Sequence record: LR597658
DNA length: 64,000 nucleotides
Source: Escherichia phage VpaE1_ev108
Reading direction: 5' to 3' (one strand)
The translations under genes were made by a program, and so were the position numbers. Below are positions 3,142 through 3,417 of this stretch, piece after piece (within the stretch, counting starts at the first letter, position 1; the number at the start of each line of letters is the position of its first letter). Under the pieces are notes generated by a model. It saw only the letters and a program-made list of their open reading frames with translations. It had not been told where the DNA came from and did no database searches.

Positions 3142-3274
3142 CAGAAGACCGTTTACAGCAAAACTTAACAATCTATTTCTCCGGTAAAGAAAAGGCGAAG
3201 GTTCGATTCCTTCACTCGGCAGATGTCGAGTTGGTGTAATGGTAGTACTTAAGATGATAAACAACGGTCTGGTA
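3142..3274 (+). ncRNA. candidate Y-RNA-like (YrlA-like) ncRNA: conserved 8-bp closing stem enclosing a tRNA-like domain
   Basis: stem agaccgtt (3146-3153) / aacggtct (3263-3270); interior has canonical T-arm gaagg-ttcgatt-ccttc (3197-3213), then 7-bp hairpin actcggc-agat-gtcgagt (3214-3231), then D-arm-like ttggtgtaatggtag; no anticodon arm; about 1 kb downstream of the vWA/Ro60-like gene. Confidence 0.4.
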
Positions 3275-3417
3275 ATTATCTTTGTAGATAAGTTATTAAG
3301 CTTACCTGTGAGTATGCGACCACAAAGGGTGAAAGGGTAAATTCTAGATTTAAACCCAAAAAGGCACATCGCTACAGACCTTAAGCAAGTCTGGGTAGCT
3401 TATCTACAAAGATAATT
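3274..3417 (+). repeat. perfect 19-bp inverted repeat (aattatctttgtagataag / cttatctacaaagataatt) flanking about 106 bp
   Basis: left arm 3274-3292, right arm 3399-3417; could form a long RNA hairpin (RNase III-type site) or mark an insertion/recombination site. Confidence 0.6.

What the first reader, a model, noticed from the sequence alone, without database searches (positions are those of the whole stretch)
3274..3417. Perfect 19-bp inverted repeat flanking 106 bp inside the tRNA array
aattatctttgtagataag (3274-3292) and its exact reverse complement (3399-3417) bracket a 106-bp segment. A perfect 19-bp dyad at this spacing is unlikely by chance. It could form a long RNA hairpin, or be the terminal inverted repeats of a small insertion element.
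Basis: seen in the sequence. Interest (0 to 1): 0.55.

Follow-up and report, generated by a model that had tools for sequence, protein, structure and literature searches.

The report
Phage Y-RNA-like gene's closing helix
The perfect 19-bp inverted repeat is the closing stem of a conserved ~144-nt structured RNA gene that sits just before tRNA-Lys in a Felix-O1-type phage, close to a gene for a Ro60-like RNA-binding protein, so it is most likely a new phage Y-RNA-like partner RNA and not a mobile element.

Summary
The arms 3274-3292 and 3399-3417 are exact reverse complements. This is the only inverted repeat of 14 nt or more with a short spacer in the 64-kb window, and none appeared in 200 shuffles.

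The window is a Felixounavirus tRNA array. The 144-nt unit lies at the same site, 0-17 nt upstream of tRNA-Lys(UUU), in Felixounavirus, Suspvirus, Mooglevirus and more distant ~75-90-kb relatives. It occurs in five sequence versions of 137-152 nt.

All versions keep a closing helix, an inner helix P3a and a hairpin P4, through compensatory changes. G·U pairs occur only on the + strand, so it is an RNA, co-transcribed with the tRNAs. It is not a MITE: it is single copy, has no target-site duplication and has no empty site. Rfam has no match.

My best reading, at about 50% confidence, is a Y-RNA-like partner of the phage Ro60-like protein. The main rival is a pure processing stem.

The parts
3274..3417 (+). 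The whole ~144-nt structured RNA (candidate Y-RNA-like RNA, here called 'Yrl-K'). It is type A of five sequence versions.
   Evidence: Fold z = -6.2. Conserved in 249 phage records and 26 IMG/VR contigs. A covariance model built from types A and B finds types C, E and D just upstream of tRNA-Lys in distant relatives (E = 7e-10, 9e-5, 0.045) and nothing else in 75 other loci.
3274..3297 (+). P1, 5' strand. Positions 3274-3292 are the perfect 19-nt arm; 3293-3297 extend the helix with G·U pairs.
   Evidence: P1 has 4 pairs with changes on both sides. Over the whole tested structure 98.7% of cells pair, against 29-45% when partners are slid.
3394..3417 (+). P1, 3' strand. Positions 3399-3417 are the perfect arm. 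It ends 4 nt before the 5' end of tRNA-Lys.
3298..3304 (+). AAGCUUA, directly after the P1 5' strand (UUAUUAAGCUUA when the last P1 bases are included). It occupies the same position as the U-rich AGCAA motif of the neighbouring stem-closed RNAs. G27 and C28 are invariant in types A and B.
   Evidence: Invariant columns. Compare UUAUUACAGCUU after the stem of the 4468-4562 hairpin and UUUACAGCAA in the modules.
3316..3372 (+). P3 arm. P3a is GCGA (3316-3319) paired with UCGC (3369-3372). P3b is GGGU (3335-3338) paired with ACCC (3354-3357). The apex AAAUU-CUA-GAUUU (3339-3351) carries the invariant AUUCUAGAUU.
   Evidence: P3a differs in sequence but pairs in all five versions: GCGA/UCGC, GAGU/ACUC, GCGG/CCGC, GAGU/ACUC, GUGAC/GUCAC (read from the sequences). 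The type-B lower stem co-varies at four pairs (read from the alignment). The apex is invariant in types A and B; type C has AUACUAGUAU.
3375..3393 (+). P4 hairpin: CAGAC - CUUAAGCAA - GUCUG, directly abutting the P1 3' strand.
   Evidence: Five different stems carry a conserved loop (CUUAAGCAA, CUUUAGCAA or CCUUAGCAA): CAGACC/GGUCUG, CAAACC/GGUUUG, CAGUC/GACUG, CUGUUC/GAACGG, GAAAGUC/GACUUUC. The loop is always 29-45 nt before tRNA-Lys(ttt).
3422..3497 (+). tRNA-Lys(UUU). RNase P cleavage at its 5' end would create the 3' end of the RNA (inference).
682..2097 (+). Gene for a 471-aa Ro60-like protein (TROVE-type ring plus vWA domain). Pfam calls it DUF2828 + DUF7788.
2116..2236 (+). Two sigma-70-like promoters (TTGACA -35 boxes at 2116 and 2207) that would drive the tRNA/RNA array. 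The next promoter-like site with 10 or more of 12 matches is at 3671, and no + strand terminator-like site lies between.
   Evidence: A promoter is annotated at the equivalent of 3671 in phage ASO1A.
2428..2510 (+). Stem-closed RNA module 1: outer stem UGAC/GUCA, AGA/G internal loop, inner stem AGACCAA/UUGGUCU, then UUACAGCAA.
2595..2669 (+). Module 2: UUAC/GUAA, AGACCGU/ACGGUCU, UUACAGCAA.
   Evidence: The outer stem co-varies among orthologues (UUAC/GUAA to UUGC/GCAA).
3051..3134 (+). Module 3: GAGC/GCUC, AGACCAA/UUGGUCU, AUUCAGCAA.
3138..3275 (+). Module 4: the same stem, enclosing a circularly permuted tRNA-like domain. It holds an anticodon-like hairpin (3176-3192), a T arm (3197-3213), a closed acceptor hairpin (3214-3231) and a D arm (3234-3248). 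This is the YrlA order V-T-AS-D. Its last two bases overlap P1.
   Evidence: Partial Rfam tRNA match at 3165-3214, 22 bits. The acceptor hairpin co-varies in relatives (ACUCGGC/GUCGAGU, ACACG/CGUGU, ACCCUUC/GAAGGGU). The YrlA architecture is described in PMC4201824.

Best explanation
The inverted repeat is the closing helix (P1) of a ~144-nt non-coding RNA on the + strand. It is made as part of the polycistronic tRNA transcript of a Felix-O1-type phage.

Shown: P1 (19 perfect bp, 24 bp with G·U pairs) encloses a junction that carries a long P3 arm with an invariant AUU-CUA-GAU apex and a P4 hairpin with a conserved CUU(U/A)AGCAA loop. The helices are maintained by compensatory change across five sequence versions. 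The RNA always ends 0-17 nt before tRNA-Lys(UUU). A Ro60-like protein is encoded about 1.2 kb upstream on the same strand. The array also contains at least four more stem-closed RNAs that share a 'stem + U-rich AGCAA' signature, and one of them has a YrlA-type tRNA-like domain.

Inferred: the 144-nt RNA is one of these Y-RNA-like (Yrl) partners of the phage Ro60-like protein. RNase P cleavage at tRNA-Lys would make its 3' end, and an upstream endonucleolytic cut would make its 5' end. P1 would protect it from exonucleases and serve as the stem handle typical of Y RNAs. The AGC-containing motifs (after P1 and in the P4 loop) would be the shared protein-recognition element. The variable interior would recruit or block another factor. 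By analogy with bacterial Ro60/Y RNA/PNPase particles and the Thermus phage Ro60-Yrl complex, the RNP would reshape host exonuclease action on structured RNAs such as tRNAs during infection.
For: Evidence that it is an RNA structure:
- 98.7% of cells pair, against 29-45% when partners are slid, and 5 pairs changed on both sides.
- About 70 G·U cells against 1 A·C cell, so the + strand is the one selected (tallied from the pair-type columns).
- The covariance model scores 133 bits on the + strand and 40 bits on the - strand.
- Types C, D and E keep P1, P3a and P4 with different sequences.
- No ORF is conserved across the versions.

Evidence on transcription context:
- Promoters lie at 2116 and 2207. 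No + strand terminator-like site lies before 3671.

Evidence for the Ro60 link:
- The protein from 682-2097 folds as Ro60.
- Gene order is syntenic (DUF5681 - Ro60-like - array) in relatives down to 53% protein identity.
- Module 4 has the YrlA order T arm - closed acceptor - D arm (PMC4201824).
- In 75 other phage loci with DUF2828 genes, 32 orphan T arms lie on the gene strand and 0 on the opposite strand. Several of them fold as stem - UUUCAGCAA - T - AS - D - stem.
- CAGCA lies upstream of 14 of 32 orphan T arms, against 7 of 93 tRNA T arms and 8.7% of random windows.

Evidence that the 144-nt RNA shares the signature:
- The P4 loop is CUU(U/A)AGCAA in all versions.
- UUAUUAAGCUUA follows its stem, as UUAUUACAGCUU does in the 4468-4562 hairpin.
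- In type D (L172) its closing stem is an unmistakable module stem, UUUGCA-AA-GAAUC-UUUCAGCA.

Precedent: a phage Ro60 with phage-encoded Yrl RNAs that engage host PNPase (PMC12135203).
Against: - There is no experimental evidence of any kind (expression, ends, binding).
- The canonical Ro60-binding motifs (GGUCCGA, GNCGAAN0-1G, CGAA) are absent from the element.
- Rfam gives no Y-RNA hit.
- The element has no tRNA-like domain of its own.
- The RNA family is confined to Ounavirinae-like phages, whereas DUF2828 proteins are widespread. About half of the DUF2828 loci have neither tRNAs nor detectable Yrl RNAs nearby.
- Its invariable position in front of tRNA-Lys(UUU) could point to a tRNA-linked role instead.
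- One genome has lost it (L047), so it is not essential for plaque formation.
- The similarity of the P4 loop to the module motif is short: 8 of 9 positions with a one-base gap.
Confidence: 0.5

Rival explanations
1. It is a pure processing or insulating element. The long duplex would be an RNase III-type site (like rRNA leader-trailer helices or T7 processing hairpins), or a structural barrier, that separates the upstream RNAs from the tRNA-Lys/Met/Ile sub-cluster and sets up RNase P cleavage. The excised interior would have no function in trans.
For: - It has 19-24 contiguous bp, about two helical turns, inside a polycistronic precursor and ending 4 nt before a tRNA 5' end.
- Other long helices abut tRNAs in the same array. 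A 13-bp perfect repeat extends the tRNA-Ser acceptor stem (4205-4217/4306-4318). A hairpin with a stem of roughly 26-30 pairs ends 1 nt before tRNA-Leu (4468-4562).
- From my own knowledge, not checked here: RNase III takes part in T4 tRNA-cluster processing.
Against: - The 100-nt interior is conserved and its helices co-vary (P3a, P3b, P4). A bare cleavage site does not need this.
- In types D and E, P1 is broken by 2x2 and 3x3 internal loops into 4-16-bp segments. A perfect two-turn duplex is therefore not the conserved feature.
- The invariant loop motifs point to recognition by a specific factor.
Confidence: 0.22
2. It is a tRNA-Lys-linked device. The RNA would act on or for tRNA-Lys(UUU). 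For example, it could be a decoy for an anticodon nuclease, since the P4 loop C-U-U-(U/A)-A-G-C-A-A resembles an enlarged anticodon loop. Or it could be a cis-acting regulator of tRNA-Lys maturation.
For: - In all five versions the element lies immediately upstream of tRNA-Lys(ttt), even where the neighbouring genes differ (Asp or Ala upstream).
- In ESCO50 it is retained, with the fused 5' part of tRNA-Lys, although both neighbours were deleted.
Against: - Nothing specific supports a decoy role.
- The P4 loop has 9 nt, not 7, and carries no Lys anticodon.
- Linkage may simply reflect shared processing by RNase P.
- The motif is shared with modules that are not next to tRNA-Lys.
Confidence: 0.1
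3. It is a miniature inverted-repeat transposable element, or the terminal repeats of a small insertion element.
For: A perfect 19-bp terminal inverted repeat brackets a short segment.
Against: - It is single copy in the window and has no match in 5,426 E. coli genomes.
- There is no target-site duplication.
- It sits at the same site across Felixounavirus, Suspvirus, Mooglevirus and beyond.
- The arms diverge by compensatory pairs and + strand G·U pairs.
- The only absence is a T-arm/T-arm deletion that also removes part of tRNA-Lys.
Confidence: 0.02
4. It is a DNA-level palindrome (a cruciform, protein-binding site or origin element), or a small protein-coding gene as some records annotate.
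For: - The arms are a perfect DNA palindrome.
- Several GenBank records place short hypothetical CDSs over it.
Against: - G·U pairs are tolerated only on the + strand. These would be A·C mismatches on the other strand or in a cruciform (about 70 against 1).
- No ORF is conserved between versions, and JLBYU32 has none of 20 aa or more overlapping the unit by at least 60 nt.
- A 106-bp spacer is atypical for a dimeric DNA-binding site.
Confidence: 0.03

Closest known systems
Bacterial and phage Y RNAs (YrlA/YrlB of Salmonella, Mycobacterium and mycobacteriophages; Yrl1/Yrl2 of Thermus phage phiLo), which are partners of Ro60/Rsr
   Same: It is encoded within about 1.2 kb of a Ro60-fold gene and on the same strand. 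Its 5' and 3' ends pair in a long stem around a large structured interior. Its size is about 140 nt. Several such RNAs lie side by side in one precursor, and the neighbouring RNA has the YrlA T arm - closed acceptor - D arm order. A phage precedent for Ro60 plus Yrl plus host PNPase exists (PMC4201824, PMC12135203).
   Different: It has no GGUCCGA, GNCGAAN0-1G or CGAA motif and no tRNA-like domain of its own. The protein is a divergent Ro60 that Pfam does not call TROVE (DUF2828/DUF7788). The shared motif is U-rich AGCAA. The RNAs are interleaved with genuine tRNA genes. P1 is unusually long and, in this lineage, unbulged. Binding has not been tested.
Leader-trailer helices of rRNA precursors and phage T7 RNase III processing hairpins
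   Same: A long-range duplex of about two helical turns flanks a structured RNA inside a polycistronic transcript.
   Different: Here the enclosed RNA is only about 100 nt. The helix is interrupted by internal loops in distant relatives. No cleavage data exist.
Phage T4 stable RNAs rnaC and rnaD (species 1 and 2 RNAs) in the T4 tRNA cluster
   Same: They are 119-139-nt stable RNAs that lie in a phage tRNA gene cluster. That their function is still unknown and that they are co-transcribed with the tRNAs is from my own knowledge.
   Different: There is no sequence or fold similarity. T4 rnaC folds with a T arm and an acceptor-like stem, and neither RNA has a long closing duplex. T4 has no adjacent Ro60-like gene in the region inspected.

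Membership tests
Y RNA / Yrl (Ro60-associated ncRNA) | Encoded close to (4 kb or less) and on the same strand as a Ro60/TROVE gene | tested here: met
   [not shown]
Y RNA / Yrl (Ro60-associated ncRNA) | 5' and 3' ends pair in a long stem that encloses a large internal loop or domain; length roughly 80-130 nt | tested here: met
   P1 is 19-24 bp and the interior is about 100 nt. The total of 137-152 nt is slightly above the classical range.
Y RNA / Yrl (Ro60-associated ncRNA) | Conserved Ro60-binding motif in or near the stem (GGUCCGA in animals; GNCGAAN0-1G or CGAA in bacteria and phage) | tested here: not met
   There is no CGAA anywhere in 3274-3417. In its place is a different shared motif, U-rich AGC(A/U)(A/U), after the stem and in the P4 loop.
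Y RNA / Yrl (Ro60-associated ncRNA) | Match to curated Y-RNA covariance models | tested here: not met
   No Rfam match at E of 10 or less, even in a 301-nt scan.
Y RNA / Yrl (Ro60-associated ncRNA) | tRNA-like domain (T, closed acceptor, D), which defines the YrlA subclass only | tested here: not met
   It is absent from the 144-nt RNA. It is present in the adjacent module 4 (3138-3275).
Y RNA / Yrl (Ro60-associated ncRNA) | Physical binding to the Ro60 protein | not testable with these tools
   This needs co-immunoprecipitation or a gel-shift assay.
RNase III processing stem | About 20 bp or more of largely uninterrupted dsRNA | tested here: inconclusive
   Met in types A, B and C (19-24 bp). 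In types D and E the helix is split by internal loops.
RNase III processing stem | Staggered cleavage by RNase III in vivo or in vitro | not testable with these tools
   No transcript-end data are available.
MITE / insertion-element terminal inverted repeats | Target-site duplication flanking the repeats | tested here: not met
   The flanks are ...CGGTCTGGT | and | TAATGGAAG..., with no direct repeat.
MITE / insertion-element terminal inverted repeats | Multiple dispersed copies, and presence/absence polymorphism with empty sites | tested here: not met
   It is single copy and sits at the same site in all relatives. The one absence is a recombinational deletion.
tRNA | Cloverleaf with T and D arms recognised by tRNA detectors | tested here: not met
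   ARAGORN and the Rfam tRNA model find nothing in 3274-3417.
T4 rnaC/rnaD-type stable RNAs | Sequence or fold similarity to T4 species 1 or 2 RNA | tested here: not met
   The folds differ and neither has a long closing helix. Only the genomic context, a phage tRNA cluster, is shared.

The most novel reading that the evidence does not exclude
Felix-O1-type phages, and more broadly many phages that carry DUF2828 genes, run a previously unrecognised Ro60 system. It would consist of a divergent Ro60 protein served by a battery of Y-like RNAs that share a 'closing stem + U-rich (C)AGCAA' signature and are interleaved with, and processed together with, the phage tRNAs. The 144-nt RNA would be a new Y-RNA class, with a long unbulged stem and a non-tRNA effector domain dedicated to the tRNA-Lys junction. 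The RNP would be used to control host exonucleases or tRNA quality control during infection.
Probability: 0.4. Interest if true: 0.75.

Novelty: new variant of a known kind. Interest (0 to 1): 0.62.

Why it matters
Felix O1 and its relatives are classic, widely used Salmonella and E. coli phages (typing, biocontrol, the BASEL collection). Yet the gaps in their tRNA arrays are either unannotated or annotated as short hypothetical ORFs.

If the reading is right, these gaps encode a family of structured RNAs that work with a phage Ro60-like protein. That would extend Ro60/Y-RNA biology, so far known from animals, about 5% of bacteria, mycobacteriophages and one Thermus phage, to a large group of enterobacterial phages and to the widespread DUF2828 family. 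It would give DUF2828/DUF7788 a testable function. It would also link phage tRNA arrays to RNA quality-control or decay machinery.

The system is easy to test in E. coli K-12 and Salmonella. Even on the conservative reading, this is a new covariation-supported phage RNA family that is missing from Rfam.

Tried and rejected
1. Rfam scans of 6.5 kb and of 301 nt found no family for the element.
2. A distant blastn of the unit against all complete E. coli genomes found no match, so there is no host or prophage copy.
3. From memory, AAGGGUGAAAGGGU in type A resembles the RNase P RNA CR-II region. I rejected this. The run varies by indels within type A (L017, L018, L031, L033) and is absent from types B to E.
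4. The type-B junction (CCGAUGA...helix...GAC) looks a little like a hammerhead or k-turn, but core positions do not fit and it is not conserved, so I dropped it.
5. CUUUAGCAA resembles the rrn boxA sequence CUUUAACAA (from memory), which suggested antitermination. The motif travels with tRNA-like RNAs next to DUF2828 genes even where there is no long tRNA array, so protein recognition is the likelier reading. I kept this only as a remote possibility.
6. The UCUAGA/ACUAGU palindrome at the P3 apex could act as a kissing-loop dimerisation site. This is possible but untestable here; a simple hairpin apex explains it equally well.
7. The metagenome scan used too loose a pattern (ATTCTAGATT...CTACARRCC). 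Nearly all of the 120 hits were chance, and the few real ones were again types A and B.
8. Comparison with T4 rnaC and rnaD showed no structural similarity.
9. Coding potential: there is no conserved ORF.
10. P2, a 5' hairpin inside the element, has no consistent pairing across versions and is left unresolved.
11. Literature searches found no paper that links Felix O1 or Felixounavirus with Ro60 or Y RNA, or that describes DUF2828 function, in the held library.
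Full report
**1. The observation.**
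- The two arms are exactly as described: 3274-3292 and 3399-3417 are perfect reverse complements with 106 nt between them.
- The repeat finder extends the arms to 22 nt at 95% complementarity.
- The + strand RNA folds with a 24-bp closing helix when G·U pairs are allowed (-47.8 kcal/mol, z = -6.2).
- It is the only perfect inverted repeat of 14 nt or more with a spacer of 200 nt or less in the 64-kb window.
- None of 200 Markov shuffles of the window produced a 19-mer, and one produced a 16-mer.
- The arm sequence occurs nowhere else, even with 3 mismatches.
- ARAGORN finds 26 tRNA genes on the + strand at 2263-7237. The unit lies in a 428-nt gap between tRNA-Asp and tRNA-Lys(ttt), and ends 4 nt before the tRNA-Lys gene.

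**2. Origin and distribution.**
- The window is 99.6% identical, over the 801-nt query 2900-3700, to Escherichia phage VpaE1_ev78, so it is a Felixounavirus.
- The 201 nt around the unit match 249 phage records, all but two of them named as enterobacterial phages (the two exceptions were not inspected).
- Of those matches, 189 are at 95% identity or more, and a second group is at about 72-74%.
- The unit is also present in 26 IMG/VR contigs of about 88 kb.
- It is absent from 5,426 complete E. coli genomes.
- Extracting the Asp-Lys gap from Felixounavirus, Suspvirus and Mooglevirus genomes shows the unit at the same place in all of them.
- It comes in two sequence types: A, as in the window, and B.
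- Types A and B differ by about 28%, although their flanks are nearly identical.

**3. It is an RNA structure on the + strand.**

I aligned 21 distinct type A and B sequences. RNAalifold and an explicit pair count give the following:

| Measure | Result |
|---|---|
| P1 length | 24 pairs |
| P1 pairs changed on both sides | 4 |
| P1 pairs changed on one side to G·U | 3 |
| P4 pairs changed on both sides | 1 |
| Cells forming standard pairs | 98.7% |
| Same measure with partners slid by 1-3 columns | 29-45% |
| G·U cells versus A·C cells (tallied) | about 70 versus 1 |

- The G·U excess means pairing is selected on the + strand RNA, not on the opposite strand or in a DNA cruciform.
- The covariance model built from this alignment scores the window at 133 bits on the + strand and 40 bits on the - strand.
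- Within type B, reading the aligned sequences shows that the lower stem of the central arm (AUUUCCU/AGGAAAU) co-varies at four pairs.
- The apex AUU-CUA-GAU is invariant in types A and B.
- No ORF is conserved across the versions.

**4. More distant versions.**

I used the neighbouring protein as an anchor (section 6) and fetched three syntenic phage contigs whose proteins are 63%, 56% and 53% identical. Each carries a recognisable version just upstream of tRNA-Lys(ttt).

| Version | Locus | Closing helix | P4 hairpin |
|---|---|---|---|
| C | L171 | 21 bp with one A·C mismatch | CAGUC-CUUAAGCAA-GACUG (apex AUACUAGUAU) |
| D | L172 | three 5-bp segments separated by internal loops | CUGUUC-CUUAAGCAA-GAACGG |
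| E | L173, Yersinia phage P778 | 16 + 4 bp | GAAAGUC-CCUUAGCAA-GACUUUC |

- The model built only from types A and B finds C, E and D at these positions (E = 7e-10, 9e-5 and 0.045). It finds nothing convincing in 75 other loci or elsewhere in the window.
- Reading the sequences, a short helix (P3a) just 5' of 'WAC-P4' pairs in all five versions with different sequences: GCGA/UCGC, GAGU/ACUC, GCGG/CCGC, GAGU/ACUC and GUGAC/GUCAC.
- The conserved design is therefore: closing stem, a structured interior with a long P3 arm, then P4 with a CYU(U/A)AGCAA loop abutting the 3' strand of the stem, then tRNA-Lys.
- The perfect 19-bp state is specific to the Felixounavirus type-A lineage.

**5. It is not a mobile element.**
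- It is single copy and has no target-site duplication.
- It sits at the same site in all relatives, and its arms co-vary.
- The only genome found without it (IMG/VR 2706796742, L047) lost it through a deletion. That deletion joins the T arm of the upstream tRNA-like RNA to the T arm of tRNA-Lys.
- Phage ESCO50 kept the unit while losing both neighbours.

**6. Context that changes the interpretation.**

*Transcription.* Promoter-like sites with perfect TTGACA boxes lie at 2116 and 2207, and the next at 3671. No + strand terminator-like site lies between them. The unit is therefore inside a polycistronic tRNA transcript.

*Neighbouring RNAs.*
- The same transcript contains four copies of a stem-closed module, at 2428-2510, 2595-2669, 3051-3134 and 3138-3275.
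- Each module has an outer 4-bp stem, an AGA/G internal loop and an inner stem AGACC.../...GGUCU. Then comes U(U/A)(U/C)CAGCAA and a variable insert.
- The stems co-vary between paralogues and between orthologues, for example UUAC/GUAA to UUGC/GCAA.
- The insert of module 4 holds an anticodon-like hairpin, a T arm, a closed acceptor hairpin and a D arm.
- This is a circularly permuted tRNA, in exactly the V-T-AS-D order described for bacterial YrlA Y RNAs (PMC4201824).

*Neighbouring protein.*
- The ORF immediately upstream of the array (682-2097, + strand, 471 aa) is DUF2828 + DUF7788 in Pfam and 'RNA-binding protein' in PHROGs.
- Its sequence finds nothing significant in the PDB (best E-value 1.3).
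- Its AlphaFold model is confident (pLDDT 88, pTM 0.88).
- The model matches Ro60 structures as the ten best Foldseek hits.
- The phage therefore encodes a divergent Ro60-like protein, with candidate Y RNAs directly downstream on the same strand.
- This is the arrangement used to define bacterial YrlA RNAs (PMC4201824).
- It was recently shown biochemically for a Thermus phage, where Ro60 and Yrl RNAs bind host PNPase and attenuate it (PMC12135203).

**7. Generality of the protein-RNA link.**
- I examined 75 further IMG/VR loci that encode DUF2828 proteins. About 30 have tRNA genes nearby.
- T arms not belonging to called tRNAs number 32 on the gene strand and 0 on the opposite strand.
- Several of these fold as stem - UUUCAGCAA - T arm - closed acceptor - D arm - stem, directly next to the gene. 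Examples are L226 (two copies), L246, L205/L208 and L181.
- CAGCA lies 10-110 nt upstream of 14 of 32 orphan T arms, against 7 of 93 tRNA T arms and 8.7% of random windows.
- The 'closing stem + U-rich (C)AGCAA' signature therefore travels with DUF2828 genes across diverse phages.

**8. Where the 144-nt RNA fits.**

It shares the family layout in three ways:
- A terminal stem is followed by UUAUUAAGCUUA. Compare UUAUUACAGCUU after the stem of another long hairpin at 4468-4562.
- The P4 loop is CUU(U/A)AGCAA.
- In type D the closing stem is an unmistakable module stem, UUUGCA-AA-GAAUC-UUUCAGCA, next to two paralogous modules in the same genome.

It differs in three ways:
- It has no tRNA-like domain.
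- It has no canonical CGAA-type Ro60 motif.
- In this lineage its stem is long and unbulged.

**9. Mechanism.**
- *Shown:* the structure, its conservation, its transcriptional context, the Ro60-fold neighbour and the shared motifs.
- *Inferred:* the RNA is released from the precursor, with its 3' end made by RNase P at tRNA-Lys. P1 stabilises it. It binds the Ro60-like protein through the AGC-containing motifs. The RNP acts on host exonucleases or on tRNA quality control.
- I put this at about 0.5.
- The main rival (0.22) is that P1 is only a processing or insulating stem. Support for it comes from other long helices that abut tRNAs in the array: the tRNA-Ser acceptor extension at 4205-4217/4306-4318, and the 4468-4562 hairpin.
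- What weakens that rival is the conserved interior and the interrupted P1 in types D and E.
- A tRNA-Lys-specific role (0.1) is suggested only by the invariant linkage.
- The mobile-element, DNA-palindrome and coding readings are essentially excluded.

**10. Novelty.**
- Rfam has no model for this RNA.
- GenBank records leave the region blank or annotate short hypothetical ORFs.
- The Felix O1 genome paper and a Felixounavirus comparative paper do not mention it.
- No paper in the held library links these phages or DUF2828 with Ro60 or Y RNA.
- I class it as a new variant of a known kind: a Ro60-associated Y-like RNA, or at minimum a new phage tRNA-cluster RNA family.
- This classification is provisional, because binding is untested and a defining motif of Y RNAs is absent.

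Noticed in passing
[not shown]
   Followed up: yes
window 2428-2510, 2595-2669, 3051-3134, 3138-3275 (+): Four paralogous stem-closed RNA modules lie between tRNAs. Each has an outer 4-bp stem, an AGA/G internal loop and an inner AGACC/GGUCU stem, then U(U/A)(U/C)CAGCAA and a variable insert. The stems co-vary between paralogues and between orthologues.
   Followed up: partly
window 3165-3262 (+): Inside module 4 there is a circularly permuted tRNA-like domain. It holds an anticodon-like hairpin (3176-3192), a T arm (3197-3213), an acceptor stem closed by a loop (3214-3231) and a D arm (3234-3248). This is the YrlA-type order, and the acceptor hairpin co-varies in SUSP1/2 and Mordin. tRNA finders do not call it.
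   Followed up: partly
window 4205-4217 / 4306-4318: A perfect 13-bp inverted repeat flanks tRNA-Ser(tga) exactly and extends its acceptor stem into a helix of about 20 bp or more (fold z = -5.9). It is the second-longest short-range inverted repeat in the window.
   Followed up: no
window 4468-4562 (+): A 95-nt hairpin with a stem of roughly 26-30 pairs (z = -6.5) ends 1 nt before tRNA-Leu(tag). UUAUUACAGCUU follows the 5' strand of the stem, as in the modules and the 144-nt RNA, so it may be a further member of the same RNA set.
   Followed up: partly
window 4122-4206 (+): This is an uncalled cloverleaf-like sequence with an 8-bp acceptor stem, a T arm (GGGGUUCAACUCCUC) and a 9-nt 'anticodon' loop (CUUCCAACA). 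It is conserved in L171. ARAGORN misses it and the Rfam tRNA model gave no hit at E of 5 or less.
   Followed up: no
L047 (IMG/VR 2706796742_000001) about 5600-5650; L013 (phage ESCO50) 1483-1700: The array is remodelled by recombination between T-arm-like repeats. L047 fuses the T arm of module 4 to the T arm of tRNA-Lys, which deletes the 144-nt RNA. ESCO50 lost tRNA-Asp, modules 3-4 and most of tRNA-Lys but kept the 144-nt RNA.
   Followed up: partly
window 3285-3406 compared with L002, L003 and L008: Within the genus Felixounavirus, two versions of the element only 72% identical (types A and B) sit between nearly identical flanks. This suggests a cassette swap by recombination, or rapid divergence of the interior.
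   Followed up: partly
L179-L253 (75 IMG/VR loci with DUF2828 genes): Orphan T arms (not part of called tRNAs) number 32 on the DUF2828 gene strand and 0 on the other strand. Many lie in 'stem - UUUCAGCAA - T - closed acceptor - D - stem' RNAs next to the gene. This points to a general Ro60-like/YrlA-like pairing in phages.
   Followed up: partly
window 2999-3052 (+): Two adjacent hairpins right after tRNA-Asp (GAGAGGGCUAUUUAGCCCCUC and CCUUAAAGGG...CUUUAAAGG) are conserved in Felixounavirus, Suspvirus and Mooglevirus. Their function is unknown.
   Followed up: no
window 3597-3781 and 3713-3902 (+): There are sub-threshold Rfam hits to permuted tmRNA (29 bits against a 47-bit gathering score) and to tmRNA (16 bits) in the gap after tRNA-Ile, which also holds a strong promoter at 3671. 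They are probably driven by tRNA-like parts.
   Followed up: no
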